Source: Escherichia phage myPSH2311. From it: 64,000 nt of DNA. The stretch lies in sequence record MG976803.1. One strand, given 5' to 3'. The notes under the pieces were generated by a model that did no database searches, was not told the origin of the DNA, and saw only the letters and a program-made list of their open reading frames with translations. Made by a program: the position numbers and the translations under genes. Shown piece after piece: positions 7,077-63,150 of this stretch (within the stretch, counting starts at the first letter, position 1; the number at the start of each line of letters is the position of its first letter).

Positions 7077-7117
7077 TCGACAAATTAAATTATTAATAGT
7101 ATAGGAGCTAACATAAC

Positions 7118-7453
7118 ATGGCTAATCCAACTTTATTTGTATCGTATGACCAGAATGGTAAAAAACTTTCTTTTGCTAACTGGATTTCTGTTCTGTCCCC
7201 TCAGGATACCCCGTTCGTATCTATGACCGGTAAAGAGTCTATCAACCAGACTATCTTTAGCTGGCAGACCGATGCACTGGCAAGCGTTGACAGTAATAAC
7301 GCACACGTCGAAGGCTCTCGTGCTGAAGACGGCGAAATGAAACCGACTGTTATCAAATCTAACGTTAATGGTCCTTTGGACGTGGTAACTGATTGCAGTG
7401 TCAAGTCTTGGCATATGTCCATGTCCATGGCATTAAGCTATAAAGGCGCTTAG
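7118..7453 (+). CDS. major capsid protein, N-terminal segment (ends at in-frame TAG)
   Basis: RBS AGGAG upstream; same reading frame as 7463-8065, separated only by TAG at 7451-7453 plus 9 nt. Confidence 0.55.
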   Translation: MANPTLFVSYDQNGKKLSFANWISVLSPQDTPFVSMTGKESINQTIFSWQTDALASVDSNNAHVEGSRAEDGEMKPTVIKSNVNGPLDVVTDCSVKSWHMSMSMALSYKGA

Positions 7454-7462
7454 ACATGCGTA

Positions 7463-8065
7463 TTGCGTCTGAATGACACCCATGCAGCTCGTAAGACTGG
7501 TGCATTCCAGTTCCTGTGTGCTCACGGTGGTCTGGCTGGTGGCGTTGTTGACAAGACCAAGAATGGTCCTGCTGACCCGGACACTGGTGCAGTAACTGTT
7601 AAAGTTGCACAGAATGCTTCTAACCCGACCACTAACATTGGTTTCGACGAAGCTGATATCTTTGATATGACTCTGCAACTGTATACCGCTGGTTCTGAAG
7701 CAGATATCATCATGATTAACCCGGCTCATGCTAAGATCTTTGCTGGTCTGCAAGAAAATACTCAGGGTTCACGTAAGCGTATCTTTGAGAACACCAAGCA
7801 GTTCATCTACGAAGTTAACAGCATCACTGACCCGCTGGGCCAGAGCTACAAAATCATCGTTAACCGTTGGATGCCTACCGATGCAGTTTACTTCTTCCGT
7901 AGCGCTGACTGGACCCAGATGGTTCTACGTGCTCCGAAACGTACTGAACTGGCTAAAGACGGTTCTTACGAGAAGTGGATGATTGAAATGGAAGTTGGTC
8001 TGCGTCACCGCAACCCGTATGCTTCCGGCGTTCTGTTCACTGCTGCGGGAAAGGTGGCGGCGTAA
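7463..8065 (+). CDS. major capsid protein, C-terminal segment
   Basis: 200 aa, TTG start in track, no SD; in frame with 7118-7453; followed by slippery site and Ig-like ORF. Confidence 0.55.
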   Translation: MRLNDTHAARKTGAFQFLCAHGGLAGGVVDKTKNGPADPDTGAVTVKVAQNASNPTTNIGFDEADIFDMTLQLYTAGSEADIIMINPAHAKIFAGLQENTQGSRKRIFENTKQFIYEVNSITDPLGQSYKIIVNRWMPTDAVYFFRSADWTQMVLRAPKRTELAKDGSYEKWMIEMEVGLRHRNPYASGVLFTAAGKVAA

Positions 8066-9445: not shown

Positions 9446-9454
9446 GGAGATAAT

Positions 9455-10579
9455 ATGATCGTTTATAACAACCAAGCACCTAAGAATGTTAACAATGTAG
9501 GACAATTTGGAGCTACTGAGGGAACTATTGGTGCTTATAAATCAGCAGCTGAATATGCAGCAGACTCTAAATATTGGGCATTGTTGTCCCAAACTAAATA
9601 CTCCTCAGTAGAGGAGATTTTGGCTGAAGTAGAACGTCTGTATGCTCAAGGTCATCTACTGGAAGAAGACATTAAACAACTCAAGAGTGACTTTGAGTCA
9701 CAAGAACAAGTGCTCTTAGGTTTGATTCAATCCACAGGAACTGCAATTGACAACACCAATGCAGCAACTGAGCTTTCAAAAGAGGCAACTCAAAACGTTC
9801 TAGCACAACTTGACATTATCTCTAACATGACAGTTCAAACAACGCTTCTTCCTCCGGGAAGCCTAGCTACGGGGTCTTATGATAATGCAACAGGTGTCTT
9901 TGCTTTTGGTATTCCAGAAGGTAAACCGGGGCGTGATGGTACTGACGGAACAATCGGTGATATTGGAAGCGTTCCTGTTGGTACCCCTGTTGTTGATGAC
10001 TATGGTTTCTATGTAGATAAAGATGATGGTGGTTTATACCGAGCTGACATGTCAGATATTGCCAACTTGATTCCATCTGTTCGATCTGTTTCAATCAATG
10101 GCGGCGCTGAACAAACAGGTTCAGTGGTTTTTGATTCTGTCTCCACATTCAATGGACGTAAGGGTGCTGTAGTTCCTGCTACTGGAGACTACACAGCTGC
10201 TCAAGTGGGAGCTTTTAGTGTAACTAATAACCTATCCGAAATAACCGACACAAGTGCAGCTATTACAAATATTGGACTCGCTGAGCATGGGATTGGTAGC
10301 CCTACCTTAACCAAAGTGAAGGCTATGGACTGGCAAACATTTAATTTTGTCAATGGAGGTAACTATTCAGTATTAATGTCGAATATTACAAATGCCCCTG
10401 CTGAGATAAATTATCCTGCCAATTATGGGTTATATCTTGAAGTCATTGGCGTAGTTACAGGAGGAGGTGAGGTACGAGTGGTGCCAATTGCATTGGGAAT
10501 CCTCTCAATGGCATATTTTCCGCTTGGCCAATGCGCTTATGCCGTGGCAAATGTGCCACAACTGCTGCATTGTGTGTAG
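9455..10579 (+). CDS. tail fiber protein, N-terminal segment (ends at in-frame TAG)
   Basis: RBS AAGGAG; short collagen-like GKPGRDGTDGTIGDIG; TGDYTAAQVGA fiber-type motif; last 30 codons look non-native. Confidence 0.5.
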   Translation: MIVYNNQAPKNVNNVGQFGATEGTIGAYKSAAEYAADSKYWALLSQTKYSSVEEILAEVERLYAQGHLLEEDIKQLKSDFESQEQVLLGLIQSTGTAIDNTNAATELSKEATQNVLAQLDIISNMTVQTTLLPPGSLATGSYDNATGVFAFGIPEGKPGRDGTDGTIGDIGSVPVGTPVVDDYGFYVDKDDGGLYRADMSDIANLIPSVRSVSINGGAEQTGSVVFDSVSTFNGRKGAVVPATGDYTAAQVGAFSVTNNLSEITDTSAAITNIGLAEHGIGSPTLTKVKAMDWQTFNFVNGGNYSVLMSNITNAPAEINYPANYGLYLEVIGVVTGGGEVRVVPIALGILSMAYFPLGQCAYAVANVPQLLHCV

Positions 10580-10705
10580 CATCGCCAGCTTAGCGCTGCA
10601 TCAATTGTACCTATTACCAAAGGTGGTACAGGAGCTACTTCATCAGAGAATGCTCGACTAGCTCTAGTTGCAGCTAAGAGTGGTGATAACTCTGATATCA
10701 CCTCG

Positions 10706-23757: not shown

Positions 23758-23824
23758 GACCTAAGTCCTGCCTTCTATAATGTATATAGGGGGTAGGACA
23801 TTTTTATTTATAAAAGGAGACGTT

Positions 23825-24172: not shown

Positions 24173-24179
24173 TATCGGT

Positions 24180-26972: not shown

Positions 26973-27139
26973 TTGCAAGCCTTTTAAGGCGCGCTGAAGC
27001 GGCTTTAAATGGCGCTAAATCGTGCAAAATGCCCATTGGGAGCCTGAATGGCGCGTGTTTTGCATAAGCCGGCGTTTGCCCAGTTCGTAAGGCTGGTATT
27101 TTGCTGTAAAGCGTGATTCATCGCCGCCTGATGCGTACT

Positions 27140-27982
27140 ATGGAAGATAAGGGCATATCTAGAGAGGATGCTGAAGCATTTGCTGGTTCCTATATGGATA
27201 ACCGTTATGCACTTCTTGAGAAGCCTATGACTCCTACTGAACATCAGAATGCTCGTTCTCGTATCGAAGCTGATGTTGAGAAGTTTGCTAAGAAGTACGA
27301 ATCAATGACTCCTATCGAGAAAGAGATTGTTAAGGTTACTGGAGATACTGAAGGTAAGCTTGATAACTTGGATGCGGATACTAGGAAGGCTATTGAGGAG
27401 GCTCAGAAGGTTGACTCTGATATTAAGAAACTGCAAGAGGAAGAGTTGGAGATGGAGAAGATTCGTTCTGCTCTGCCTGATGATGAAAGATCTCAAGCAA
27501 ATTCTGATATCTTGGAAAGCATTAAACAACAGGAAGAGGTCTTTGCTGATAAAGTAGAGAAAGCTTTCTTGAGTGGGAAGAGCTTGGATGAGTTGGCTAG
27601 TGTGGCTGAAGTTTTAGACAGGGTTCATGGTGCAGATAAGGCTGGTAACAACCGTCGCTTTGTACGTGCATTGCAGACTGCTGCTGAAAACAAGAAGAAG
27701 TATGGTGATAATCCAGTAGCTTGGTTTAGTGCTGATGATTACTCTGCCATTGCTAAACTTGGTGCTTCTTCCGCAGGTGGTAACAAATCCAGAGCACTGG
27801 AGAAGATCTTTGGTTCTACAGCTGAACAGGCTAAGAGTAAGTTGCTTGGTAGGGATGATGTAGCGAAGATGAGACGTGTGATTGAAGAGAACCCTGATAT
27901 CAAGATTCCTTCTTACAAGACAGGTCAGGTTTCCAGTCCCAGTCAATGGGCATGCATGGTCCAAAATCGGCCCCTAGGGTAA
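27140..27982 (+). CDS. internal virion protein, truncated by insert
   Basis: track ORF 27113-27982; native-looking reading frame runs to 27922, last 20 codons derive from the filler. Confidence 0.45.
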   Translation: MEDKGISREDAEAFAGSYMDNRYALLEKPMTPTEHQNARSRIEADVEKFAKKYESMTPIEKEIVKVTGDTEGKLDNLDADTRKAIEEAQKVDSDIKKLQEEELEMEKIRSALPDDERSQANSDILESIKQQEEVFADKVEKAFLSGKSLDELASVAEVLDRVHGADKAGNNRRFVRALQTAAENKKKYGDNPVAWFSADDYSAIAKLGASSAGGNKSRALEKIFGSTAEQAKSKLLGRDDVAKMRRVIEENPDIKIPSYKTGQVSSPSQWACMVQNRPLG

Positions 27983-28022
27983 CGTCGGAATCCGGTACGC
28001 TTATGCCCCTAAGTGCATTTTT
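27923..28022. other. 100-bp GC-rich filler between perfect 81-bp direct repeats
   Basis: 27842-27922 is identical to 28023-28103; the intervening 100 bp is unrelated to flanks. Confidence 0.8.
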
Positions 28023-28247: not shown

Positions 28248-28524
28248 TAAAAGAAAAGCCCAGGGCTCGTTCAAGTCAAATGATGGGCTAGTCAATTAAG
28301 CCCCTTGGGCATAGCTGGCAATGCTAGTCACAACTTCTTCATTCATATACCCTCCTAGATTGTGTTTATAAAATTAGTAAGTTTCTCTTCACTTTCATCA
28401 AAAGCTTTTCCAGCTGCTTCCATCTCCCAAGTATCGGCATTGTCAATAAAGCTCTGAGCTTCTAATAGGTCGTGGATTAAGTCGAAGAGTTTATTTTTAT
28501 CTGCTTGTGTGATCATGTCAGTTC

Positions 28525-34426: not shown

Positions 34427-34723
34427 TTAGATAGTTAATTTGTGATCTTCCTCCGCTCTGTTTCTAACAGAGACGGCTTCTTCTAGGGTTGAGAAAGTTC
34501 CTAGGTATTTAGTTTTCGTTGAAAGGCTTAAGGCTTTTGGCATAGCTGCAAAATGGGCCCGTTAATATGACCCGTTAAAGGCTTTTTTGGCATGCGTAAA
34601 AGGCTTGCTTAAATTTCCTGCCTCATCACCCCGCCTGCATTTTGTTCCGTTGCGAATTCTCCAGAACACTTTCCCAGATGATAAATCACAAACAAAGAAC
34701 TCATCCAGAAGATCTTCTATCAT
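34427..34723 (-). pseudogene. HNH-AP2 homing endonuclease remnant with internal filler
   Basis: 5-prime 26 codons MIEDLLDEFFVCDLSSGKVFWR and 3-prime end KYLGTFSTLEEAVSVRNRAEED flank a GC-rich filler at about 34515-34645. Confidence 0.5.
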
Positions 34724-34935
34724 ATCATGCAACCATCGCAAGTTAAGTCACCTAGCAGGGACAGGGAAAGTAATCTGGATTGCTCATCGCTGTATAGTTG
34801 ATCAATCTCTTCTTTAAGTTTTGCCAACTCCATAAAGTTAATGAGCTGACCATGTTCGAGGCAGTCTGTTTTTAGTACGAACAAAACTTCAGCGTTGGTT
34901 GAGTCTTCACTTGAGTATTTATCAATGTATTCCAT
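34720..34935 (-). CDS. hypothetical protein
   Basis: 71 aa ORF. Confidence 0.35.
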   Translation of the reverse strand: MEYIDKYSSEDSTNAEVLFVLKTDCLEHGQLINFMELAKLKEEIDQLYSDEQSRLLSLSLLGDLTCDGCMI

Positions 34936-34937
34936 TT

Positions 34938-35159
34938 TTATGCCACATCTCCTTGTTTGTTGTTAATAATATCCAGTGCTGTATAAGCTTTACCTGTTCC
35001 TAAGTATTCCAAAACTGGAGGACTCTTCTTTTCTTCAGCGACTACATAAGGTGTGATCTTCCCTTTCAGTACAGCCTGAGATGCTTTAGCACTGTCTTCA
35101 GAGGTATGAATAGTAGTAAGCCCTTTCTTTCCAATTCTATAAGTGTGAACCCAAATCAT
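34938..35159 (-). CDS. hypothetical protein
   Basis: 73 aa ORF. Confidence 0.35.
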   Translation of the reverse strand: MIWVHTYRIGKKGLTTIHTSEDSAKASQAVLKGKITPYVVAEEKKSPPVLEYLGTGKAYTALDIINNKQGDVA

Positions 35160-36295: not shown

Positions 36296-36487
36296 TCACT
36301 CTACCAATGCAGGTACTTCTATCCTTTTAACTGTGAATGACTTGTTTGGAAACTTTCGAACTAGCTCTGCTGCTTTGGTTATTGCTAAGTTCTCTGTCTC
36401 AAAGATACACAGTTGACCATTTAATGCTACGAGAGTGGAGCCACCACTGTAGATGGCCCAAGATTGATAATAACCACGAACACTCAT
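36296..36487 (-). CDS. hypothetical protein
   Basis: 63 aa ORF just downstream of polymerase. Confidence 0.35.
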   Translation of the reverse strand: MSVRGYYQSWAIYSGGSTLVALNGQLCIFETENLAITKAAELVRKFPNKSFTVKRIEVPALVE

Positions 36488-36495
36488 AACTCACC

Positions 36496-38340
36496 TTAGT
36501 GCGTATGCATCCAGTTAAGTCCAATCTGACAATCAGAGGCCAGAGGACATTCCATATTCAAATACTCACCAGCCTTCTTAACACAAAGCTCGGTGTGCTC
36601 TTTGAGTTTCTGTACATCGTTACGATTAACTGAGAACTGGCCCTCGTCGTGCATATCAATTACCTTAGCACAACGAACTCCATCCTTCTCAATCCACTTG
36701 TTAAGGAACATCATAGCGTATTTCATAACAACAGCACCAGCACATTGCAGGAGAGTGTTAAGTGCTTTATGAACCATAACTTTACCAGTGGCATCTCGTC
36801 TCATTGTAATCTTACGACCATCAACACCAATCAAGTATCCTTGAGCAGCTTTCTCTGTCATACGATCAATGAGGATTGCAATACATGGGTTCTCTGCCAA
36901 GAAACGTGCTCGCATCACTGAACCTTCGTCAGCCCCACCACCTACAATTGAGCCAAGCTTAGCGTCGCCAGCACCGTAGTTGAATGCATAGATAAACGTT
37001 TTAGCATTGTCACGAGTAGGAAGACCAGCAAGTTTCTGGTTGTGGGAGTGGATATCACCTTCAAGGAGAATATCACGATACATAATAGCAGAAGCTAAAC
37101 CACGTTCTGCCAGAGCTTTCTTAGCTGGGTTGTTCTCTTCGATTGCCTCAGCAAGCATATCCCTACACTCTTTAATGAGGTAGTGAGCTAGCATACGAAG
37201 TTCAAGTCCAGAACCATCATACCCTAAGAATACTTCTTTGCCAGCGGGTATGTAATATTTGTAAGCACCTATAGGTTTGTCTTTCTTCCCCGGCTTACCT
37301 TTCTCGTAAATTACGTTAGTACCTTTTCGTATATAACAACCATCAGGAACAACGTTAGTAATAACGAAAGGATGAGAATGATCACTGTCTGAGTTATAGT
37401 CAGACTCAAACAAACTGCGGCACTCGTGACCAAACAAACCACGGGAGGGAATATTAACCACGATACGATGTTTGAATCGAAAAGTCGGCGTAGCGCAGCT
37501 GTTAGCTTCTGCCGAAAGTTTACCATCTTCGCGCTCCTTTGCTATGAGTCCACTGATAAGACCTAGCCTGTGAGCCGCTACAACGCGTCTCTTAAGCAAA
37601 CTTCCGACACTCCCTAGCTCACCCCCTAACCCTTCTTCAAGGGTCTCCTCGAGGTTTGTAGGAGCTGTAGGCCACTTGTTTGATGTGGCTAGTGCTTTCT
37701 TAATCTCATCAAACGTTACAGGATTACGGCGATTAGGGTTTAATCCCAAACCAAATACGTAAGCCTTCATATAATTCTTAGTTTTAAACCTGAAATGCTT
37801 TTCTAAGAACTTCTTAATATCAGCGTCAACCATCTCGGCTGTCTGCTTCTGCTTAGCATTGCCTCGCATCCAAGCAGTATACCATGCTTGGTACGTTCCA
37901 TACTTTCTCATATCTTTCTTGATTTCGAAAGTATTCCAAGGCTTCTTAGATACGTTAAACTCTGGAGGAAGAAATCCCTCATCCATAAGAGCTTCTTTAA
38001 CTCGTGCATCTTTCGATGGGTCAAAGTCTACGTATTCGACACAGGTGAAAGCTCCACCAATGTCTTCCCTCTTCAGCCCAACCCTATCACAATAGGCTTG
38101 AGGCCACTTCTGTAAAGCTCCAGACTTCTTAAACGGCTTCATATAAGTAGAGCCATCTAATCTCATCTTAGGTAAGAGAGGAATCAGTTCTTTGTCAATA
38201 TTAACAATAATCTCTTTAAGGAGGTGAACATACCACCGAGCATTTCTTCGGTTGAAACTCACTCCGTGCTTTGCTTGCTTAGAGATTATATCAGCGACAG
38301 TCATCTCTGTCAAAAATGGAAGAGCGTCCGGGTTGCTCAC
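36496..38340 (-). CDS. DNA polymerase, family A (polymerase domain only)
   Basis: 614 aa; motif A GYDGSGLELR, motif B RDNAKTFIYAFNYGAG, motif C IDMHDEG. Confidence 0.85.
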   Translation of the reverse strand: MSNPDALPFLTEMTVADIISKQAKHGVSFNRRNARWYVHLLKEIIVNIDKELIPLLPKMRLDGSTYMKPFKKSGALQKWPQAYCDRVGLKREDIGGAFTCVEYVDFDPSKDARVKEALMDEGFLPPEFNVSKKPWNTFEIKKDMRKYGTYQAWYTAWMRGNAKQKQTAEMVDADIKKFLEKHFRFKTKNYMKAYVFGLGLNPNRRNPVTFDEIKKALATSNKWPTAPTNLEETLEEGLGGELGSVGSLLKRRVVAAHRLGLISGLIAKEREDGKLSAEANSCATPTFRFKHRIVVNIPSRGLFGHECRSLFESDYNSDSDHSHPFVITNVVPDGCYIRKGTNVIYEKGKPGKKDKPIGAYKYYIPAGKEVFLGYDGSGLELRMLAHYLIKECRDMLAEAIEENNPAKKALAERGLASAIMYRDILLEGDIHSHNQKLAGLPTRDNAKTFIYAFNYGAGDAKLGSIVGGGADEGSVMRARFLAENPCIAILIDRMTEKAAQGYLIGVDGRKITMRRDATGKVMVHKALNTLLQCAGAVVMKYAMMFLNKWIEKDGVRCAKVIDMHDEGQFSVNRNDVQKLKEHTELCVKKAGEYLNMECPLASDCQIGLNWMHTH

Positions 38341-39856: not shown

Positions 39857-40292
39857 TTATGAGCTTAAAGCTCCTTTGCGTGCTCCAGCTGCTTTTCCAG
39901 CTCGATCACCACTTTTGCCGCCGTTTGAACGGTTTGAGCTGACTGATTCAACACGTAAGTTGCTTGACGCATTAGAGCCTCCAGACTTGACAGCTCGTTT
40001 GTGTCCAACGTCTTTACCTCTGACAGCAGCTTTTCCATCGCGCTTTTCAACGATGCGACGTGCACGGTGGCGCTGAGCATCTCCGCTCTTGCTCCCAATT
40101 CCCGTTTCACCGCGCTTGATCGCAGTCCTTCTTTCTTGTGCATAATCTCTCTTTCCTACATGATCTGCCATTAGATTTCTCCTGTTGGGCAATGACGTTA
40201 AACGCCCGTTGTGGCCCAAAATTGGCGCCCAAAATTGGGGCTTAATGCGTGCGTAATTTTTGGGCCAAATTAAGGCCGTATATAATAACAGC
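39857..40292. other. GC-rich segment fused in frame to the PhoH ORF; coding status unclear
   Basis: two overlapping minus-strand frames both look protein-like; local GC well above phage average. Confidence 0.4.
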
Positions 40293-41750: not shown

Positions 41751-42095
41751 TTAACTCTCCAAAGTTTTCTTCAGAGCTGCCCATGAGATTGGGTAGAGCT
41801 TAGCCATCTCTTCATCTACGGATTTAGCAAACACTCGAACTTCATATTGAGCGTGAGATGAGAGTCGCTGACGACACAACTCAAACCAGCCATACAAAGA
41901 ACCAGTCCACACCCACTCAGTGATCATCCCCTGAGGAAGAACAAATCGAGCTTGCTCTGGTGCAATAAATTCAATCAACTTGTCATATGTTGCTAGAGAA
42001 GCTTCATATGCATCGTTAATCAACATTAATGCTTCAGCTCGTTCTCCGTCGATGAGTTGAATCCCTGAACCTGCATGGTTTGCCCAAAATGGCAT
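41751..42095 (-). CDS. thyX: flavin-dependent thymidylate synthase ThyX, C-terminal half
   Basis: ARFVLPQG..RLSSHAQYEVR matches ThyX C-terminal conserved block. Confidence 0.6.
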   Translation of the reverse strand: MPFWANHAGSGIQLIDGERAEALMLINDAYEASLATYDKLIEFIAPEQARFVLPQGMITEWVWTGSLYGWFELCRQRLSSHAQYEVRVFAKSVDEEMAKLYPISWAALKKTLES

Positions 42096-42163
42096 TGGCG
42101 CTATAGCATGGGGCTTTTTAAATGGCCCCGCGGGTTAATGCTAATGGCGGATTTTGGCCACGG

Positions 42164-42469
42164 TTATGCATGCGTAGGGAGTTCAACTGCTCCATCTTTA
42201 TACCGCCGGGACATTTCGTTCCACGAGAATCCAACCTGATGCTTGCCCAGCTGTCTCGCAATTGCGATAGGTGCTTTGCATCGGAAACTGACTTGCGGGT
42301 GTCGGAATGGAGTACAGTGTTTTTCCCGTGCAAGGAAGTTGATAAGTTTTGTGTCTCTCTCATTTAAGTCACCTTCTCGAACAACACCGAAAGATACTCT
42401 AGCTGCATTGACTACAGATTTGTCACTACCCATTGCTTCAATCAGTGTTGCTTGTAGTTGTTCGTTCAA
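42164..42469 (-). CDS. thyX: flavin-dependent thymidylate synthase ThyX, N-terminal half
   Basis: AARVSF, HCTPFRH and KH..FSWNEMSRRY resemble the ThyX signature; separated from the C-terminal half by a filler. Confidence 0.6.
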   Translation of the reverse strand: MNEQLQATLIEAMGSDKSVVNAARVSFGVVREGDLNERDTKLINFLAREKHCTPFRHPQVSFRCKAPIAIARQLGKHQVGFSWNEMSRRYKDGAVELPTHA

Positions 42470-43422: not shown

Positions 43423-44034
43423 TTAGTAAGACACGTCACCACTTGAATGGGACATGTTGCTCTTGACGAAGTAGCAATACTTGCCAAGACCTTCATTAAT
43501 TTCTTGAAGCATACTCTGATCGACAGGGTAGGATGCTAAATCGCCATCAAACTCATCCATCTTCTCAATAATACACATCAAGGTCATGCACATATCAGAG
43601 AGCATACCGTCCATGTCTAGATCAGCATTACCCTCTGAGAACCAGGCATGGGAGAGGTAGTTAGCCGCTGTAGCATCCACCTTAACGCAGTGGTATCGCA
43701 TACGCTCAGCAATACGATCTCCTACCTGTCGTGCGTAATCTTCCAGCTCGTCAAACATACCATGAACACCCTGAAATCCTGCACCAGAGACATTCCAGTG
43801 GTAGTTTTTAGCTTTGATATGCAAGAGTTCCATGTTAGCTTGTAAGCAGCTCAGGATGTGTTCTAGGCTGTTTGCACTAATCATGCCTTGCATTGTTTCA
43901 AGGCGAGAGATTGAAAGCTCAGACCGGTCTAACATACTATAACTGTCACGACCAATCTCAGGTAAATCAAAAACATTCTTATGCATTTGGGTTTTCTCCA
44001 TCAAGTTCAACTGAGTTAGCAACATTACGTGCAA
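43423..44034 (-). CDS. hypothetical protein
   Basis: 203 aa ORF. Confidence 0.45.
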   Translation of the reverse strand: MHVMLLTQLNLMEKTQMHKNVFDLPEIGRDSYSMLDRSELSISRLETMQGMISANSLEHILSCLQANMELLHIKAKNYHWNVSGAGFQGVHGMFDELEDYARQVGDRIAERMRYHCVKVDATAANYLSHAWFSEGNADLDMDGMLSDMCMTLMCIIEKMDEFDGDLASYPVDQSMLQEINEGLGKYCYFVKSNMSHSSGDVSY

Positions 44035-44237
44035 TATTATCCATTACCTGCTGGGTAATTACGATGCAGTTTAGGCATGGTAATGCGTTTAGGCGTCTTG
44101 GGGAGGTGCCCCCAGTTGCAAGCTGATGCTGCGGGTAAATTGGCGCCATGGGAAACGCGTTAATGCGTGCCTGATGTTATCTTTTCTCATGTGTTGCTCA
44201 AGATCCCAAACAACATGAATAGCCCACATCTTTTTCA

Positions 44238-45381: not shown

Positions 45382-45498
45382 TCTTGCTCCTTAGTTATTT
45401 GTTTCCATTTAAGCGTGCATATTTTGGCTAATTTTTGGCGTAAAAGTTTTCGCCCAGTGCCTGATTGAACCGGGTCGTAATTATTGCCCGGGTAGTGT

Positions 45499-45591
45499 TT
45501 AAAATGGCGAGGAATTAACAGCTGAGTGTGGTGCATCAATAACACCATCATCAATTAATTTATGTAACTCTGGACTTCCTAGTAAACTCAT
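45499..45591 (-). pseudogene. diverged duplicate of the dCTP deaminase 5-prime end
   Basis: encodes MSLLGSPELHKLIDDGVIDA then runs into filler; compare MSLLGSVELHDVIDNGYLDA of the intact gene. Confidence 0.55.
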
Positions 45592-45978: not shown

Positions 45979-46034
45979 CCCTTCAATTGCAAATTGGCGC
46001 CCAATTTGGCAATGATTTGCCCCGTTTGTTAAGC

Positions 46035-46949
46035 CTATGCAAATGTGCGCTTTGGCGATTGGGCCAAATTGGCCTGAAGACTAGACATAATCTGAATCTC
46101 TTCATAAGGGATTCCAAAGAATCGACTCATGTCTCGGTTAACACAATATAGAGCACTTGTTGTATCTTCAATAAGAGAAACCTGACCTAATCCATTGACT
46201 AGATGACTAACTGGCTGAGGTGTGGGAAGATATCGAGTTTGGGCCATGTATTGATGCGCAACTGCTGGAGAGGAAAATCTCAACACTTGTGAGTTAGGCC
46301 ACTTCTTGTGAACATACCTGATTTCACGACTAGAGACAACCACTGGACAAGGGGAAGTCATAGCCAAATATCCGTGAGAAGTCATGAATAAGTTGTCAAG
46401 AGTCATCGCACCACGGCACATCATAGGAAAATTATCCAATACCTCTTCAATAGAAGTAGGATAATTAAACATGAATTGGATACGAACCCCATTCCACTGA
46501 AACTCAATAATATCAGTGAATGTTAATTGAGAACCCCCAGCATAGGATTCGTTTGTAGCTTCAGCAAGAAGTGATGCATATTCAATATCTTGTGACTCTA
46601 GCCATTCCTTCACATTACTTTCAATCTCCCGTCCAAGCTCTTGCCAACGATCAGTTGGGATGAAAGTGTTTTGAGTTCTTGGTGTTTGTCCTCTGACAAT
46701 AAAGATATCAATGTCATGTGGAGCTATGTTATTAAGGACAGCATCACGAACAGCCCCACCAGTAATGATGGGACAGATACCATCTGGAATCAAGTTGTTG
46801 TTAATCAACTGTTCAATGAAGTGACGACCAACAGTGATATCAGGTTGTTGAGCAACCTTATCTTCAATTTGGTTAATCGGGATAACAATCATTTTACATT
46901 TTCCAATATAATGAAGGTGGGTCGTAAGGGTCAAATCCCGTGAGTTCAC
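46035..46949 (-). CDS. nucleotidyltransferase (Pol beta superfamily, CCA-adding/poly(A) polymerase-like head)
   Basis: [15 protein letters not shown] motif. Confidence 0.5.
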
Positions 46950-47451
46950 ACAAGAAAAGATAAACCTTAACAGTTAAGTTAACGTCCTGTTCACAATAAG
47001 TAAACATATCTTCAGTGAAAGCATCCCATGCTTCCTCTTGCTCACCATAATCGCCCTTAAGTTCTCCTAAGAACTCACCCCACTGCTTCAAACCATGACC
47101 CCTTGGGCCACGTCTAGGGTCGCCTTTCGGATACTCAGGACTGTCACCAATACGGTCAGGTTTAAGATATCGACTAAGACATAAAGTGTCGAAGACGTTA
47201 AAACGATAGTTAATCAGATTGGGATACATCTTCTTCAGAGCACAAAGGTCGAAGTCAATAATATTGTGACCCACCAGTACATCTGCTTCTGTAAGTTTAC
47301 GAATCCCATCTTCAATTTGGTGAGGCCGATAGCCCCACCTTTCACCAGTTTCAACATCGAAGATATAAATACACCATACTTTAGTTATGTCATCGTACAG
47401 TGCATTACTCTCGATATCGAATGCAAACACTTTCTTCTTTTTCTTTACCAC
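46894..47451 (-). CDS. 3-5 exonuclease (DnaQ-like), separate from polymerase
   Basis: Exo I FDIES, Exo II HNIIDFD, Exo III YCEQD. Confidence 0.75.
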
Positions 47452-48785
47452 GGTGAAGCTCCATCTGCTTGGTTGACGAGAGAAGCTGCATCCTCTCCGT
47501 TAGTTAAAACGAATGGATTATCTTCATCAACTTCAAAGTCTTCCCTTTCTACAAGTCTCCCGGTTTCACTGATATACTTAGTATAGCAGACACCTGTCTG
47601 ACCGTAGTTACGTTCTTTCAGTAATCGAATGACTGAGAGGTTCTTAGCTAAGCCATCAGCTTGCTTGTCACGCTCAAAGCCAATGATACACTGACACCAA
47701 CGCATAAGAGAACGAGAGCCAGTGAACTGCACTTCACGTACCTGTCCACCTTCTTCATGAGGAGCACCACCTGCCGGAGCATTAAGGTGAGATAGCACGA
47801 AAGCGGTAAAGTCTAATTCTTTGCACATACCAGCAAGCTCGGAAGCAATCTTACTGATTTCAGTGTTAATCTCTGAAGGTGTTAAATGGGACACCAGAGC
47901 GGTAATGTTATCAAGGATGATGAACTTACACTGGTTTTCAACTACCCAGAAACGGATACACTGTTTAATGTCTTCCCATTCATTCTGTCCGAAGTTGTCA
48001 TACAAGAAGAATTTGTCTGCATAACGAAGTGCTTCATTACGCAAATCCTCCTCATCATATTCAACATCAGGTCGGTGGAAAGGAATTGATGCCGACTTAC
48101 CAGCAATGTTCTTAACAGACATGCCTACCTTCTCTTCCAAGAAGAAGCCACCTCCATTAAAACCATGTTCTAAGCACAGATGAGCAACCAGCTCATGAGC
48201 AATGAGTGTTTTACCACTCCCTACTCCACCACCAATTGCTACCACCTCTCCCCATCGAATACCGAAGGTCATCTCATTCAGAGTCTTCCACGGATATGGG
48301 ATACCCCACTCCGCTTTCTTCAGAGCATCATCAAGGCAATCAAAGATTGTTACAGCACCAGCAGGAGATTCCCGCTTTGCTGAGTACTTGAGAATGTTGA
48401 ATAACTCTTGACCACGACCAGACAGAAGCATGTCATTCGCATCCTTAATCTCTTTCTCCACACCGTTGTATGGGAAAGTTCCTTTAGGAATACGAGCAAA
48501 CTTAACATGAGGGAATAAAGAACGACCTTTTGTTAAAGCTATCTCACCTGCATCATCGTTGTCCATGCAGAGCACAACCTCCTCAAAACCATTTACGAAG
48601 TCTCGATTACGAGACAACACAGAAGAGATTGAACCTGCACCGAACGGTAAAGAAACACATGCTGGTTTGATGTTTGTTGCATTTGTAAAAGCTGTAAGGA
48701 CATGGAAACCTGACATACAGGATAGCGGGTCTTCAAAAATGAACAGCTTCTTGTTGTACACATCTCCACGTTGAGCTTGTGCCAT
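47445..48785 (-). CDS. primase-helicase (TOPRIM + DnaB-like helicase)
   Basis: [15 protein letters not shown]; Walker [10 protein letters not shown]; no zinc-binding domain in this ORF. Confidence 0.8.
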
Positions 48786-48905
48786 ACCAAAATTGCGTGA
48801 CGTTGGCTAATTGCTGACGTGGAATGGCCCTGGCAATTGGGATGCCCCGTGTTAGCTGCGATTTGGCGCGTTATTGGCCCCGTGTTTGCAAGTAATGCGC
48901 GGGCT

Positions 48906-49124
48906 TTATGCCGTTAATGCTGGGTTTATGCGTGCATATTGCTGTGCCAATGCGTAATGGGTAGTGCCCTTTTCGAACACTTCGTAATTCCCACAACGGT
49001 TACAACTCCCCCACTCCTCACCAGTCTCTTCGTTACGGAAGAGAATCATGTGGTTGTGGGTTTTATCACGACCATGAGAGATACATTCCTTACAACCTGT
49101 GTCTCCCAAAATGATCTTTGACAT
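48906..49124 (-). CDS. zinc-ribbon protein, probable detached primase zinc-binding domain
   Basis: CKEC..CNRC pairs; separated from the TOPRIM ORF by a GC-rich filler. Confidence 0.45.
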   Translation of the reverse strand: MSKIILGDTGCKECISHGRDKTHNHMILFRNEETGEEWGSCNRCGNYEVFEKGTTHYALAQQYARINPALTA

Positions 49125-49302
49125 GCTCTTCCTCCTTGGAATCCTTGAGCTTAGTAGAACGAACGAATTTCATCCCACACTTGTTCCTGTTCTTTCCTAT
49201 AAAAAGAAAGTTGGGTCTTGAACATCTCCACTGATGATTCAAAGTTTTTGGTTTGTGCAGCTTCAACGAAACGTTCATGTCGGTTGATTTTGCACCGTAG
49301 CA

Positions 49303-49515
49303 TTAAATACTTGGCTTCAAGTCTCCGAAGAGCCATGTGGCAATTTTATCTTGTTCTTCGTCGATATGATAAATCCAAGCGATAACAGTTTCACCTGAGT
49401 CCATCTTAACAGCAATCTGAGTACGCTGATAGAAGCTGTCTTCAGGGCTACGTTTGTTGTAACCTTCCAGACGGTCATACGGACCTTCCAGACCTGCTTT
49501 GTCAGTAGCAAACAC
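49303..49515 (-). CDS. AIG2/gamma-glutamyl-cyclotransferase-like protein, C-terminal part
   Basis: continues the 49627-49926 ORF once the filler and 110-bp duplication are removed. Confidence 0.45.
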   Translation of the reverse strand: MFATDKAGLEGPYDRLEGYNKRSPEDSFYQRTQIAVKMDSGETVIAWIYHIDEEQDKIATWLFGDLKPSI

Positions 49516-49606
49516 TTCTACACGAACAGGCTTGTTGTTATTGCTGTGTGCGAGAGAGATGCTCGGGAAGTAGGAACCACCGTAACGGAACAGATCAAAG
49601 TTGTCT

Positions 49607-49706
49607 AATGGGCCGTTTTATGCGGTTTAAAGGCCTTGACCAGTGCATTTGCCCGTTAAATGGCGTGGGGATTTCCCAGTGCGGGTGGCCAGTAAACGTG
49701 TTTTGT
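49607..49706. other. 100-bp GC-rich filler between 110-bp direct repeats
   Basis: 49497-49606 matches 49707-49816; intervening 100 bp unrelated. Confidence 0.8.
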
Positions 49707-49926
49707 CTTTGTCAGTAGCAAACACTTCTACACGAACAGGCTTGTTGTTATTGCTGTGTGCGAGAGAGATGCTCGGGAAGTAGGAACCACCGTAACGGAA
49801 CAGATCAAAGTTGTCTTCAGTCCAACCTTCACCAATTGACTTAGCACCAGCTCGGTCATTAACTAAATAGTTAGCTTGACCACGACGAAGAGAACCATAA
49901 GTTGCTACGTAAATTACTTCTGACAT
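49627..49926 (-). CDS. AIG2/gamma-glutamyl-cyclotransferase-like protein, N-terminal part
   Basis: N-terminal VATYGSLRRGQAN matches the YGSL/YGTL motif of the GGCT/AIG2 fold. Confidence 0.5.
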   Translation of the reverse strand: MSEVIYVATYGSLRRGQANYLVNDRAGAKSIGEGWTEDNFDLFRYGGSYFPSISLAHSNNNKPVRVEVFATDKDKTRLLATRTGKSPRHLTGKCTGQGL

Positions 49927-50137
49927 TATCTATACCTTTCCAGTCTTTCATGATGTTTTCAATGTAAGCACACTGCTGATCAGTGGCTCCTGTTACAAAC
50001 ACTTCTAACCCCAACTGCTCACAGAAGGGATTAAGAATCAATATTCTGGTTTGCCCATACGAGTGATGCTCTCGGTAGATAACACACCCAGCATCCCATA
50101 CAGAATCAATGGCTTTACTCAATCTTTCATGTTTCAT
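49871..50137 (-). CDS. hypothetical protein
   Basis: 88 aa ORF between the triplicated array and the GGCT-like gene. Confidence 0.4.
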   Translation of the reverse strand: MKHERLSKAIDSVWDAGCVIYREHHSYGQTRILILNPFCEQLGLEVFVTGATDQQCAYIENIMKDWKGIDNVRSNLRSNLWFSSSWSS

Positions 50138-50190
50138 AAAACCTCCAGCTTATCCGAACTAGCCTCCTCTTTCGAAGAGGCTAAAGCAGA

Positions 50191-50376
50191 TTACTCTGTA
50201 ATAAAGATTTTGATTACACCACAGATTGCTGCACTCTCAAATACTGCAACAGCTTCACTCCCCTGAAAGAAGGCCACTTTGCCGTCAGAGAAGTTAAACA
50301 TGTCAGCATCTAGGTCCATAGCTCGCATATCACCAGCGTCGTTAGTATCTTTAAACAGAACTTTATACTTATTCAC
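50191..50376 (-). CDS. small acidic protein C, copy 3
   Basis: 61 aa MNKYKVLFKDTND..., ends in Glu; identical to copy 2. Confidence 0.5.
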   Translation of the reverse strand: MNKYKVLFKDTNDAGDMRAMDLDADMFNFSDGKVAFFQGSEAVAVFESAAICGVIKIFITE

Positions 50377-50621
50377 AGATAGGTCACTCCTTTGTCTTGT
50401 TGTGCTTCAGAGATGATACGTTCTACACATTCCATAGAATACTTATCACCACGTTTCAGGAAAGTCACAATTGCAGAGAATTGATTACCAATCATTCGCT
50501 GATTAGTAATACCCCACTCCTCACACAACTTACGCAACTCTTTACGAGAGCCTACAATCAGAGGCTCTTTTTGTTCCATCATTCCATTTTGTACTAGATC
50601 TTCCAATGAAAACATATCCAT
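50373..50621 (-). CDS. small protein B, copy 3
   Basis: 82 aa MDMFSLEDLVQNG...; ATGA overlap with gene C. Confidence 0.5.
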   Translation of the reverse strand: MDMFSLEDLVQNGMMEQKEPLIVGSRKELRKLCEEWGITNQRMIGNQFSAIVTFLKRGDKYSMECVERIISEAQQDKGVTYL

Positions 50622-50627
50622 ATATCC

Positions 50628-51419
50628 TTAGTAGTTTACAACAGTGCCATCGTTCAGGGTAAGGCTATTAATCTGCAACACACGACCAAGCTGACGATCA
50701 CTAATTGGTGCGTTCCATCCAGAGCGGTAGAAGTTACGACCACAGAAGAACAAGATCACATTACTTGCTACAGTCGAACCGTTTTCAGGATGCTTGATGT
50801 TAGCGATATAATAACCACGACGCAGATTACGACGGGTTACAGGGTTGATCTCTAACCCTTGCTCTTCAACTTGCATTGTTTCAGGAACAGGTTCCGAAGA
50901 TTCTTCAGCAACTGGCTCGGAGCTTTCCACTGACAGTGCGTAATCCTCATCACCTGCTGGTGAAAATGTTTCTTCCACTTCTTCAACAGGAAGTTCGTAT
51001 GCAACACGATAGTCAGGCTCAACACCAGAGAAGCTCTTAACAAACTCAACAATATTGTGAGTATAGGTTTCCAGAGTTGTTCCAGTCAGTCCCGGAGCTG
51101 TGTTAACTTCCAGAACCCAAGCGTTAGTATTTTTACTAATCAGGTCAACAGCACCAAAGTTCAAACCCAGAGCAGATACAGCTTTGTGAGCTTGAATCAA
51201 AACCTGATCAGGAGGCGCATCTTGGAAGTTTGAGGAATAAACCCAACCAGTGTGATGATTTCGAACGTCTTCACGATAGGAAGGATCTTCACGGTAACCA
51301 TTACGACGAATCTTCTTCTGAACGTAAGTGATAACACCTTCGAATACATGAACACGCCATTCACGATTGGTGAACGATAAGGGAAAGGTCCTTGGCCATA
51401 GCGTGGCGTATGCATGCAT
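50628..51419 (-). pseudogene. ATP-grasp ligase 3-prime half, truncated copy
   Basis: starts within filler and joins ATP-grasp at REWRVHVFEG; retains EVNTAPG motif; lacks N-terminal ATP-binding half. Confidence 0.55.
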
Positions 51420-62760: not shown

Positions 62761-63150
62761 TTATTCCCTAGAGCTGTTATCGAACACTAAATCACCACAA
62801 TACATAGGATTGGCATACCATTTTGGCACCCCTTCGCTCTTACTCTGAAAGTAAGTCCCACTATACAGCGGAACATAATTCTTCTTAAGGGCACGTTTAG
62901 CAAGTCGCTCGCTTTCTCCAATGGCTTGCTTAGTCATCGGATTTTTATCACGAATCAGCTTTACATAACGTTTATAAGGTTTCTCCTGTTTTAATAGTAC
63001 CGGAATCCACTCAAACTGGTTCTTTTGTCTTATCACCTGTTCAGCGGTCAGTTTTCGTTGGGCCATTCTATTTATCACGGTATCCGCAACTAAAGCCTTA
63101 CATGCGGTTGGCTGATTCCCTGCCTCATAATAAATAGTCAATGTCAACAT
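62761..63150 (-). CDS. cell wall hydrolase, SleB-like domain
   Basis: IYYEAGNQP..ALVADTVINRM..QKNQFEW matches the SleB/Hydrolase_2 core. Confidence 0.5.
   Translation of the reverse strand: MLTLTIYYEAGNQPTACKALVADTVINRMAQRKLTAEQVIRQKNQFEWIPVLLKQEKPYKRYVKLIRDKNPMTKQAIGESERLAKRALKKNYVPLYSGTYFQSKSEGVPKWYANPMYCGDLVFDNSSRE

What the first reader, a model, noticed from the sequence alone, without database searches (positions are those of the whole stretch)
48786..49124. Primase zinc-binding domain separated from TOPRIM-helicase by a filler
A 72-aa CxxC..CxxC ORF lies immediately upstream of the TOPRIM-helicase ORF, which lacks a zinc-binding domain. About 120 bp of filler-type sequence separates them, suggesting a split gp4-like gene.
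Basis: inference. Interest (0 to 1): 0.5.

Follow-up and report, generated by a model that had tools for sequence, protein, structure and literature searches.

The report
Gap filler splits ordinary primase-helicase gene
The apparent split primase is the ordinary single primase-helicase gene of a phiEco32-type coliphage, in which 280 bases are missing and 169 bases of meaningless placeholder sequence stand in their place; at least 15 such blocks in this window mark joins of a poorly assembled genome, so this is an artefact and not biology.

Summary
They are two non-adjacent pieces of one gene. In the closest relatives ES17 and phiEco32, and in about 97 close and more than 1000 distant phage records, the N-terminal part is one continuous reading frame. 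In ES17 and phiEco32 the gene is a single 596-aa gp4-type primase-helicase.

In the window, codons 1-55 and 149-596 are 100% identical to ES17 gp075. The 280 nt between them are replaced by 169 nt (48792-48960) that match nothing in the public collections searched. This block has no RNA structure, no terminal repeats and stops in all six frames. It also encodes the last 17 residues of the "72-aa ORF".

Putting the ES17 segment back restores a protein identical to ES17 gp075.

The same odd composition recurs in at least 14 other orphan blocks. Many are about 100 nt long and sit at deletion or duplication joins. They break the terminase, portal and major head genes. Two of the blocks that are exactly 100 nt long are flanked by identical 81-nt and 110-nt repeats, as overlapping contig ends would be.

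GenBank myPSH1131, a CLC plus CONTIGuator pseudomolecule, shows the same architecture and the same left breakpoint in the primase gene.

Verdict: scaffolding or placeholder artefact, with no novelty.

The parts
49131..49137 (-). Native Shine-Dalgarno sequence (AAGGAGG) of the primase-helicase gene, six nt upstream of the ATG at 49124
   Evidence: Sequence read; identical in phiEco32 and ES17
48961..49124 (-). Native 5' part of the primase-helicase gene: codons 1-55, the Cys4 zinc-binding domain (CKEC...CNRC)
   Evidence: 100% amino-acid identity to ES17 gp075 residues 1-55; matches PHROG 239 profile positions 37-89
48792..48960 (.). 169-nt orphan filler that replaces 280 nt (codons 56-148) of the gene.
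   Evidence: Alignment to phiEco32 and ES17. No match in phages, E. coli genomes, IMG/VR, metagenome contigs or GTDB genomes. No Rfam hit. Folding z-score +1.77. No terminal inverted repeats or target-site duplication. Stops in all six frames. A leave-one-out 4-mer score places it in the filler class.
47445..48791 (-). Native 3' part of the same gene: codons 149-596 plus the stop (TOPRIM fold and DnaB-like helicase). The ORF finder starts it at the internal Met150 (ATG at 48785).
   Evidence: 100% amino-acid identity to ES17 gp075 residues 149-596. Pfam DnaB_C E=5e-11 and Toprim_2 E=0.004. PHROG 239 profile positions 192-610. Aligns to T7 gp4.
7368..7466 (.). Filler block (99 nt) replacing 210 nt inside the major head protein gene
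10487..10595 (.). Filler block (109 nt) replacing 184 nt inside a tail fibre gene
26976..27115 (.). Filler block (140 nt) replacing 221 nt inside the homologue of ES17 gp025
27923..28022 (.). Filler block of exactly 100 nt, flanked on both sides by an identical 81-nt repeat
28262..28329 (.). Filler block (68 nt) replacing 150 nt of ES17 sequence
40185..40286 (.). Filler block (102 nt) at a 1040-nt deletion that truncates PhoH
42079..42178 (.). Filler block of exactly 100 nt replacing 38 nt inside ThyX
44072..44171 (.). Filler block of exactly 100 nt at a 452-nt deletion
45409..45508 (.). Filler block of exactly 100 nt between 110-nt overlapping ends (78 of 110 identical)
45992..46075 (.). Filler block (about 84 nt) inside the nucleotidyltransferase gene, between flanks that are 100% identical to ES17
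49607..49706 (.). Filler block of exactly 100 nt, flanked on both sides by an identical 110-nt repeat, inside the gamma-glutamyl cyclotransferase gene
51367..51460 (.). Filler block (94 nt) between tandem copies 1 and 2 of the gp78-80 module
52764..52859 (.). Filler block (96 nt) between tandem copies 2 and 3 of the gp78-80 module
54527..54623 (.). Filler block (97 nt) at a 4717-nt deletion relative to ES17

Best explanation
The window is a Kuravirus (phiEco32/ES17-like) coliphage genome stored as a reference-ordered draft pseudomolecule. Its contig joins and gaps are occupied by non-biological placeholder sequence instead of real bases or Ns. One such gap falls inside the single-copy primase-helicase gene. 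The contig that carries the 5' end of the gene stops after gene nt 164. The next contig starts at about gene nt 445. The 280 unassembled nt are represented by 169 nt of filler. An ORF finder therefore reports two artefactual ORFs: a 72-aa ORF made of 55 native zinc-binding residues, 17 filler-encoded residues and a filler stop codon, and a 446-aa ORF that begins at the internal Met150. The real phage almost certainly carries one intact 596-aa gp4-type primase-helicase. What is shown: the replacement itself, that the filler is orphan, that it shares its composition with the other blocks, that identical repeats flank two of the exactly 100-nt blocks, that essential genes are broken, and the parallel with GenBank myPSH1131. 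What is inferred: that the cause is scaffolding of contigs followed by filling of gap positions, and who or what wrote the filler letters.
For: (1) phiEco32 gp75 and ES17 gp075 are single 596-aa ORFs. The window is 100% identical in amino acids to ES17 gp075 over residues 1-55 and 149-596. (2) Substituting ES17 nt 51032-51311 for window 48792-48960 gives a 596-aa ORF with no differences from ES17 gp075. (3) The N-terminal 241 aa are contiguous in about 97 records at 90% identity or more, and 1054 of 1249 matching phage records cover at least 80% of the query in one place. The primase/helicase is among the five most conserved core proteins of Kuravirus-like phages (PMC9965538). (4) The filler has no match in 50,697 phage records, 5,426 E. 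coli genomes, IMG/VR, JGI metagenome contigs or GTDB genomes. The exact 72-aa product is not on record. (5) There is no Rfam family. The block folds worse than 198 of 200 shuffles. There are no terminal repeats. Stops occur in all six frames. (6) Alignment of the whole window to ES17 shows about 19 joins. Each has a non-homologous block, six of them exactly 100 nt and others 94-102 nt, together with a deletion or a back-jump. None of the blocks searched at 15 other sites has any phage homologue; the one hit, within the sixteenth block searched (34492-34664), fell on HNH-gene sequence beside the filler-like stretch. (7) A 4-mer model trained on the other blocks scores the held-out primase filler at 88, against a background of -53 +/- 23. 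Only 5 background windows reach that score, and they lie in another filler block. (8) The fillers are G>C and T>A on the record's + strand whatever the direction of the local genes, and their dinucleotide usage is far from random (chi2 261). This points to one generator. (9) The exactly 100-nt blocks at 27923-28022 and 49607-49706 are flanked by identical 81-nt and 110-nt repeats, as expected for overlapping contig ends kept apart by a fixed-size gap. From my own knowledge of the ABACAS documentation, that program puts 100 Ns between overlapping contigs. (10) 25 of 114 ES17 genes are broken, including terminase large subunit, portal and major head protein, with about 100% identity in the retained parts, so the sequence as written cannot be a viable phage. 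(11) GenBank MG983840 (myPSH1131) was built with CLC plus CONTIGuator2 (PMC6200275). It has the same three copy-specific tandem gp78-80 modules at 99.7-100% identity, blocks of about 100 nt between HSPs, truncated essential genes, and a primase gene broken at exactly the same left nucleotide. The window's GC content (42.5%) and its lack of tRNA genes fit the sister record myPSH2311, made with the same pipeline. That record is absent from the collection.
Against: The source record could not be identified, so the pseudomolecule origin is an inference. The primase filler is 169 nt, neither 100 nt nor the 280 nt of the true gap, so the rule that sets gap sizes is not fully explained. The filler consists of letters, not Ns, and I could not determine who or what produced them. 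In myPSH1131 the corresponding blocks look different: they contain short fragments of real Kuravirus sequence. The primase breakpoint shared by the window and myPSH1131 is unexplained. It could point to something real at that site in the underlying phage population.
Confidence: 0.8

Rival explanations
1. The sequence is artificial for another reason. It could be a real Kuravirus genome (or a mosaic of several) that was edited in silico or produced by a generative model. In that case deletions, duplications and strain switches would be bridged by generated filler, and no contig scaffolding would be involved. The primase split would still be non-biological.
For: The filler has a restricted, typed-looking vocabulary: GCGC, CGCG, GGCC and ATGC are 4-15 times enriched, and one block contains a GCATGCATGCATGCAT run. 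The fillers show a uniform + strand bias. After a filler the sequence often resumes in a different strain's version.
Against: Identical 81-nt and 110-nt repeats around two of the exactly 100-nt blocks are what overlapping contigs give. A real GenBank record from a documented CLC plus CONTIGuator pipeline has the same three-copy architecture and the same breakpoints.
Confidence: 0.15
2. The split is real. This phage lineage would carry a degenerate or rearranged primase-helicase gene. A 72-aa zinc-ribbon protein would be made from the native ribosome-binding site. A TOPRIM-helicase would be made from Met150. Primase function would be lost, supplied in trans, or taken over by the host.
For: Both ORFs are open and in the same frame. 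The zinc-binding ORF keeps the native ribosome-binding site. T7 naturally makes a form of gp4 without the zinc-binding domain (gp4B) from an internal start (own knowledge). myPSH1131 is broken at the same left nucleotide.
Against: There is no Shine-Dalgarno sequence before the ATG at 48785. Ninety-three codons are missing, including the N-terminal subdomain of the primase RNA-polymerase domain. The flanks have no amino-acid changes, so there is no sign of decay or adaptation. The filler is orphan and belongs to the same class as blocks that destroy the terminase, portal and capsid genes. All relatives have the fused gene.
Confidence: 0.03
3. The 169 nt are a mobile or processed element, such as a small intron, an intein-coding insert, a MITE, or a recoding (readthrough or frameshift) site that interrupts the gene.
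For: The length difference from the replaced segment is 111 nt, a multiple of 3, so the downstream part stays in frame.
Against: It replaces sequence rather than inserting into it, so excision cannot restore the gene. There is no Rfam hit even at E<=1. It has less structure than shuffled sequence. There are no terminal inverted repeats or target-site duplication. It has three in-frame stops. No copy exists elsewhere in any collection searched.
Confidence: 0.01

Closest known systems
ES17 gp075 (YP_010673367) and phiEco32 gp75 (YP_001671820), the Kuravirus DNA primase/helicase
   Same: The ribosome-binding site, codons 1-55 and codons 149-596 are identical in protein sequence to ES17 gp075. The gene neighbourhood is the same: the DNA polymerase exonuclease subunit lies downstream, and gp76 and the gamma-glutamyl cyclotransferase lie upstream.
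   Different: Codons 56-148 are absent and are replaced by 169 nt of orphan sequence.
Bacteriophage T7 gp4 primase-helicase (PDB 6N7I, 1Q57, 1NUI)
   Same: The intact Kuravirus protein aligns to T7 gp4 from residue 117 (T7 residue 111) through the TOPRIM fold and the helicase, with E about 1e-32. It has an N-terminal Cys4 motif in the same position as the T7 zinc-binding domain.
   Different: The window's version lacks the region that corresponds to roughly T7 residues 50-142, that is, the linker and the N-terminal subdomain of the RNA-polymerase domain. The zinc-binding domains are not detectably similar in sequence (one search gives no Pfam hit for the 72-aa ORF).
T7 gp4B, the 56-kDa form without the zinc-binding domain, made from an internal start (own knowledge)
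   Same: It is a helicase-containing product that begins at an internal Met downstream of the zinc-binding domain.
   Different: gp4B keeps the whole RNA-polymerase domain and has its own translation initiation signal. Here Met150 has no Shine-Dalgarno sequence, and the N-terminal subdomain of the RNA-polymerase domain is missing.
GenBank MG983840.1, Escherichia phage myPSH1131 (CLC assembly ordered with CONTIGuator2)
   Same: It has the same three diverged tandem gp78-80 modules, copy for copy at 99.7-100% identity. It has non-homologous blocks of about 100 nt between aligned segments and truncated terminase and head genes. Its primase gene is broken after the same nucleotide, gene nt 164.
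   Different: In its primase gap, a 208-nt garbled copy of the gamma-glutamyl cyclotransferase region replaces 328 nt. Its junction blocks contain short real Kuravirus fragments rather than the window's GC-rich orphan filler.
Gap conventions of reference-guided pseudomolecules (ABACAS/CONTIGuator)
   Same: The window shows fixed-size 100-position separators between overlapping contig ends and variable-size separators at true gaps. Variant contigs that map to one reference region are laid out in tandem (ABACAS pseudomolecule and N gaps: PMC2712343; the 100-N rule is from my own knowledge).
   Different: The gap positions hold A, C, G and T letters of peculiar composition instead of N.

Membership tests
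T7 gp4-type bifunctional primase-helicase (PHROG 239) | N-terminal Cys4 zinc-binding domain | tested here: met
   CKEC and CNRC lie in residues 11-44 of the 72-aa ORF. Residues 3-54 match PHROG 239 profile positions 37-89 at E=4e-4. There is no Pfam hit.
T7 gp4-type bifunctional primase-helicase (PHROG 239) | N-terminal subdomain of the primase RNA-polymerase domain, between the zinc-binding domain and the TOPRIM fold | tested here: not met
   PHROG 239 profile positions 90-191 and ES17 residues 56-148 are absent from the window but present in phiEco32 and ES17. The T7 alignment starts at phiEco32 residue 117, inside the missing part.
T7 gp4-type bifunctional primase-helicase (PHROG 239) | TOPRIM fold with conserved acidic residues | tested here: met
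   The 446-aa ORF contains 'IFEDPLS' and 'CMDNDDAGE', which align with T7 'VTEGEID' and 'MFDMDEAGR'. Pfam Toprim_2 gives E=0.004, below the curated cut-off.
T7 gp4-type bifunctional primase-helicase (PHROG 239) | C-terminal DnaB/RecA-like hexameric helicase domain | tested here: met
   Pfam DnaB_C E=5.4e-11 and 42.8 bits against a cut-off of 27; PHROG 19 and PHROG 243.
T7 gp4-type bifunctional primase-helicase (PHROG 239) | All domains in one polypeptide | tested here: not met
   Three in-frame stops lie between the parts in the window. The feature is met in ES17, phiEco32 and about 97 close relatives.
Naturally split primase (zinc-binding domain encoded as a separate gene) | The downstream ORF has its own translation start signals | tested here: not met
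   The sequence upstream of the ATG at 48785 is CACGCAATTTTGGT, with no Shine-Dalgarno sequence. That ATG is internal Met150 of the intact gene.
Naturally split primase (zinc-binding domain encoded as a separate gene) | The two ORFs together hold the complete set of domains | tested here: not met
   Ninety-three codons are missing.
Naturally split primase (zinc-binding domain encoded as a separate gene) | The split is conserved in related genomes | tested here: not met
   The gene is fused in all good-quality relatives. The only other broken copy is in the draft-quality record myPSH1131.
Intron, intein or mobile insertion in a phage replication gene | Precise removal restores the intact ORF | tested here: not met
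   Removing the 120-nt spacer leaves a stop at codon 73. Removing the 169-nt block gives a frameshift. At best (168 nt removed) the result is a 503-aa product that lacks 93 residues.
Intron, intein or mobile insertion in a phage replication gene | Conserved RNA structure, terminal repeats, or homologous copies elsewhere | tested here: not met
   No Rfam hit at E<=1. Folding z-score +1.77. No terminal inverted repeats or target-site duplication. No homologue anywhere.
Scaffold-gap or placeholder filler in a draft pseudomolecule | Orphan, non-coding blocks of stereotyped length at joins where the flanks are near-identical to relatives | tested here: met
   There are about 19 joins, six of them with blocks of exactly 100 nt. 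The flanks are 98-100% identical to ES17. The blocks are orphan.
Scaffold-gap or placeholder filler in a draft pseudomolecule | Overlapping contig ends duplicated on both sides of a fixed-size gap | tested here: met
   81 of 81 and 110 of 110 nt are identical around 27923-28022 and 49607-49706.
Scaffold-gap or placeholder filler in a draft pseudomolecule | A common composition that is independent of local gene orientation | tested here: met
   The leave-one-out 4-mer score, the + strand G>C and T>A bias in 13 of 15 blocks and the dinucleotide chi2 of 261.
Scaffold-gap or placeholder filler in a draft pseudomolecule | A documented assembly history for the source record | not testable with these tools
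   The source record was not identified. The candidate MG976803 is not in the collection. The sister record myPSH1131 is documented as CLC plus CONTIGuator2.

The most novel reading that the evidence does not exclude
The breakpoint after primase gene nt 164 is shared by this window and GenBank myPSH1131. It might mark something real in this group of Indian Kuravirus isolates, such as a genuine insertion or variant junction between the zinc-binding domain and the RNA-polymerase domain that short-read assemblers cannot cross. If so, the true phages would carry a genuinely interrupted or split primase gene.
Probability: 0.03. Interest if true: 0.45.

Novelty: not a real feature. Interest (0 to 1): 0.03.

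Why it matters
It does not matter biologically. Its value is as a caution. This window, and at least one related GenBank record (myPSH1131, now an ICTV species exemplar), contain non-biological blocks, tandem variant contigs and truncated essential genes. Any "split gene", "novel small ORF", "orphan intergenic element" or "tandem paralogue" called from them is suspect. Other findings from this window that refer to "filler" should be checked against the block list given here.

Tried and rejected
- **Intron, riboswitch or other RNA element:** Rfam gave nothing at gathering thresholds for the whole window or at E<=1 locally. The filler folds worse than shuffled sequence. Rejected.
- **Repeated motif:** the motif ACACGGGGC occurs twice in the filler, but it is not enriched in the window (8 matches against 4.8 expected). 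I treated it as chance or as generator vocabulary.
- **MITE or IS element:** there are no terminal inverted repeats or target-site duplication.
- **Host-derived insert:** there is no E. coli match.
- **Natural variant shared with relatives:** there is no match in phages, IMG/VR, metagenomes or GTDB genomes.
- **Identifying the source record:** the exact 72-aa product is not on record, and MG976803 is not in the collection. The source remains unidentified.
- **Promoter or terminator in the spacer:** none was found.
- **The 100-N rule:** I looked for it in the CONTIGuator and ABACAS papers. They state only that gaps are Ns and that overlaps are taken into account. The 100-N rule therefore rests on my memory of the ABACAS documentation.
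- **Junction blocks of myPSH1131:** I tested whether they are orphan like the window's fillers. They are not: they hit short Kuravirus fragments. The two records do not share the same filler generator.

Full report
**What is at the coordinates.** All the features lie on the minus strand.
- A 72-aa ORF runs from 49124 to 48906. It has CKEC at residues 11-14 and CNRC at residues 41-44, and a strong Shine-Dalgarno sequence (AAGGAGG, 49137-49131).
- A 120-nt spacer follows at 48905-48786.
- A 446-aa ORF follows at 48785-47445.
- The large ORF has a DnaB_C helicase domain (E=5e-11) and a weak Toprim_2 match.
- The two ORFs share a reading frame, and three in-frame stops lie between them.

**What the relatives show.** The window is a Kuravirus (phiEco32-like, Gordonclarkvirinae) coliphage. 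Its closest complete genome is ES17, NC_070984.
- In phiEco32 (phi32_75) and ES17 (gp075) the same locus is one 1791-nt gene for a 596-aa DNA primase/helicase.
- The DNA alignment is essentially identical up to '...GGCACTAC' (window 48961) and again from 'TTTGGTATGGC' (window 48791).
- Between these points, 280 nt of ES17 (51032-51311, codons 56-148) are replaced by 169 unrelated nt, window 48792-48960.
- Residues 1-55 and 149-596 are 100% identical to ES17 gp075.
- The last 17 residues and the stop codon of the "72-aa ORF" are encoded by the foreign block.
- The "start" of the 446-aa ORF is internal Met150, with no Shine-Dalgarno sequence upstream.
- Against PHROG 239, intact phiEco32 gp75 covers profile positions 37-610 in one stretch. 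The two window ORFs cover positions 37-89 and 192-610.
- T7 gp4 aligns with the intact protein from residue 117 (T7 residue 111) onward.

The missing part therefore corresponds to the linker after the zinc-binding domain plus the N-terminal subdomain of the primase RNA-polymerase domain. That domain assignment rests on established knowledge of T7 gp4.

- Deleting the 120-nt spacer leaves a stop at codon 73.
- Deleting the 169-nt block gives a frameshift.
- Deleting 168 nt (the boundary is ambiguous by 1 nt) would give a 503-aa protein that lacks 93 residues.
- Replacing the block with the ES17 segment gives a 596-aa ORF identical to ES17 gp075.

**Conservation.** The N-terminal 241 aa of the intact protein are found as one continuous stretch in about 97 phage records at 90% identity or more. 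Of 1249 matching records, 1054 cover at least 80% of the query in one place. A published comparison lists the primase/helicase among the five most conserved core proteins of Kuravirus-like phages (PMC9965538). No relative encodes the zinc ribbon as a separate gene.

**Nature of the 169 nt.**
- They match nothing in 50,697 phage records, in complete E. coli genomes, in IMG/VR, in JGI metagenome contigs or in GTDB genomes.
- The exact 72-aa product is not on record.
- There is no Rfam match at gathering thresholds or at E<=1.
- The RNA folds worse than 198 of 200 shuffles, z=+1.77.
- There are no terminal inverted repeats, no target-site duplication, no promoter and no terminator.
- All six frames contain stops.

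**The filler is a window-wide class.** Alignment of the whole window to ES17 gives about 19 joins. At each join a non-homologous block sits between segments that are 98-100% identical to ES17, together with a deletion or a back-jump.

| Window block | Length (nt) | Change relative to ES17 |
|---|---|---|
| 2069-2077 | 9 | 82 nt missing, terminase large subunit |
| 5296-5307 | 12 | 76 nt missing, portal |
| 7368-7466 | 99 | 210 nt missing, major head protein |
| 10487-10595 | 109 | 184 nt missing, tail fibre |
| 26976-27115 | 140 | 221 nt missing |
| 27923-28022 | 100 | 81-nt overlap |
| 28262-28329 | 68 | 150 nt missing |
| 28784-28811 | 28 | 96 nt missing |
| 40185-40286 | 102 | 1040 nt missing |
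| 42079-42178 | 100 | 38 nt missing, ThyX |
| 44072-44171 | 100 | 452 nt missing |
| 45409-45508 | 100 | 110-nt overlap |
| 45992-46075 | about 84 | inside the nucleotidyltransferase gene |
| 48792-48960 | 169 | 280 nt missing, primase-helicase |
| 49607-49706 | 100 | 110-nt overlap |
| 51367-51460 | 94 | back-jump of about 1.3 kb |
| 52764-52859 | 96 | back-jump of about 1.3 kb |
| 54527-54623 | 97 | 4717 nt missing |
| 60549-60648 | 100 | 1786 nt missing |

- None of the blocks searched at 15 other sites has any phage homologue. The single hit, in the block searched around 34492-34664, fell on natural HNH-gene sequence next to the filler-like stretch.
- The blocks have about 50% GC, against 42% for the rest of the window. 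GC and CG dinucleotides are enriched about twofold, GA and TC are depleted to about 0.4-fold, and GCGC, CGCG and GGCC tetramers are enriched 10-15-fold.
- Dinucleotide usage differs strongly from an independent-base model (chi2 261, p about 5e-51).
- A 4-mer log-odds model trained on the other blocks scores the held-out primase filler at 88, against a background of -53 +/- 23. The only background windows that reach this score lie in a further filler block, in the nucleotidyltransferase gene.
- On the record's + strand the blocks are G>C and T>A whether the local genes run on the + or the - strand, whereas the flanks follow gene orientation. A single generator wrote them in record orientation.

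**Consequences for the genome as written.** Of 114 ES17 genes, 25 are broken and 15 are absent. The broken genes include the terminase large subunit, the portal protein, the major head protein, a tail fibre, ThyX, PhoH, the nucleotidyltransferase and the primase-helicase. The retained fragments are about 100% identical. This cannot be a viable phage, and there is no sign of gene decay. The breaks are editorial, not evolutionary.

**Probable origin.**
- The exactly 100-nt blocks at 27923-28022 and 49607-49706 are flanked on both sides by identical 81-nt and 110-nt repeats. Overlapping contig ends kept apart by a fixed-size gap would look like this.
- The region 50147-54526 holds three tandem copies of the gp78-80 module, about 92% identical to each other.
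- GenBank MG983840.1 (myPSH1131) contains the same three copies, copy for copy at 99.7-100% identity. It also has blocks of about 100 nt between aligned segments and truncated terminase and head genes.
- Its paper states that CLC de novo scaffolds were arranged with CONTIGuator2 against a reference (PMC6200275). The sister phage myPSH2311 was made the same way. It is 68,712 bp long, with 42.4% GC and no tRNA genes (PMC6437105 and PMC9965538).
- The window has 42.5% GC and no tRNA genes. MG976803 (myPSH2311) is not in the searchable collection, so its identity with the window remains a conjecture.
- CONTIGuator builds on ABACAS pseudomolecules, in which gaps are Ns and overlaps are taken into account (PMC3133546 and PMC2712343). 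That ABACAS uses exactly 100 Ns for overlapping contigs is from my own recollection of its documentation.

I could not determine how the gap positions came to hold A, C, G and T letters.

**An unexplained detail.** In myPSH1131 the primase gene is broken after exactly the same nucleotide (gene nt 164). There, 328 nt are replaced by a 208-nt garbled copy of the gamma-glutamyl cyclotransferase region. This most likely reflects contigs ending at the same graph branch in two assemblies from the same laboratory and pipeline. It leaves a small chance that something real, such as a variant junction in a mixed population, lies at that site.

**Verdict.** The best explanation is placeholder sequence in an assembly gap of a reference-ordered draft genome (confidence about 0.8). 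Another artificial origin has confidence about 0.15. A real split gene has about 0.03, and a mobile or processed element about 0.01. Novelty: not a real feature. Interest: very low.

Noticed in passing
window 7368-7466, 10487-10595, 26976-27115, 27923-28022, 28262-28329, 40185-40286, 42079-42178, 44072-44171, 45409-45508, 45992-46075, 49607-49706, 51367-51460, 52764-52859, 54527-54623: At least 14 further orphan filler blocks have the same GC-rich, palindrome-rich composition. Many are 94-102 nt long, and each sits at a deletion or duplication join relative to ES17. Any other first-stage finding that touches these coordinates is probably the same artefact.
   Followed up: yes
window 2047-3501, 3542-5742, 7112-8062, 9446-12442, 23765-28244: Essential structural genes are truncated or split, with about 100% identity in the retained parts: terminase large subunit (residues 39-513 only), portal (1-576 and 603-747), major head protein (1-83 and 152-352), tail fibre gp014 and the gp025 homologue. 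The genome as written is not viable.
   Followed up: yes
window 50147-51366, 51461-52763, 52860-54526: There are three tandem copies of the gp78-gp79-gp80 (RimK/ATP-grasp-like) module, about 92% identical to each other. Copy 2 is closest to PGN6866 (98%) and copy 3 to ES17 (99.8%). The same three copies occur in GenBank myPSH1131 at 99.7-100% identity. They are probably variant contigs from a mixed phage population laid out in tandem, not true paralogues.
   Followed up: partly
window 27842-27922 / 28023-28103 and 49497-49606 / 49707-49816: Identical 81-nt and 110-nt direct repeats flank two filler blocks of exactly 100 nt. This is the signature of overlapping contig ends kept apart by a fixed-size gap.
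   Followed up: yes
L010 1501-1872 (MG983840.1 myPSH1131) versus window 48961: The GenBank record myPSH1131 has its primase gene broken after exactly the same nucleotide (gene nt 164) as the window, but with different replacement sequence: a 208-nt garbled copy of the gamma-glutamyl cyclotransferase region. The reason for the shared breakpoint is unexplained.
   Followed up: partly
MG983840.1 (L011/L012) 34872-34968, 36444-36543, 43970-44069, 51725-51823, 53386-53485, 56491-56589, 62761-62859, 64515-64614, 72591-72689: myPSH1131, now an ICTV species exemplar (PMC12451628), itself contains junction blocks of about 100 nt, duplicated gene blocks and truncated essential genes. It should be treated as a draft pseudomolecule and not as a complete genome.
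   Followed up: partly
window 54527-54623 and 60549-60648: Large deletions relative to ES17 lie at these joins: 4717 nt (aminotransferase, gp081-gp085 and part of the COOH.NH2 ligase) and 1786 nt (gp099-gp107). The block at 60549-60648 is orphan but does not share the composition of the other fillers (leave-one-out score -75).
   Followed up: partly
window 34436-34729: This is a 294-nt insertion relative to ES17. Its right part (about 34609-34664) matches an HNH homing-endonuclease gene of other Kuraviruses (NJ01, 172-1). A filler-like stretch lies at about 34500-34608.
   Followed up: partly
window 49871-50137 (-): An 88-aa ORF lies in a 207-nt segment that is absent from ES17, phiEco32 and PGN6866 but present in myPSH1131 (99.7%). 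It overlaps the start of the gamma-glutamyl cyclotransferase gene. It may be a genuine lineage-specific small gene.
   Followed up: no
window 1-64000: ARAGORN finds no tRNA gene, whereas most Kuraviruses carry one tRNA-Arg. The region where phiEco32 has its tRNA lies within the 1786-nt deletion at 60549-60648.
   Followed up: partly
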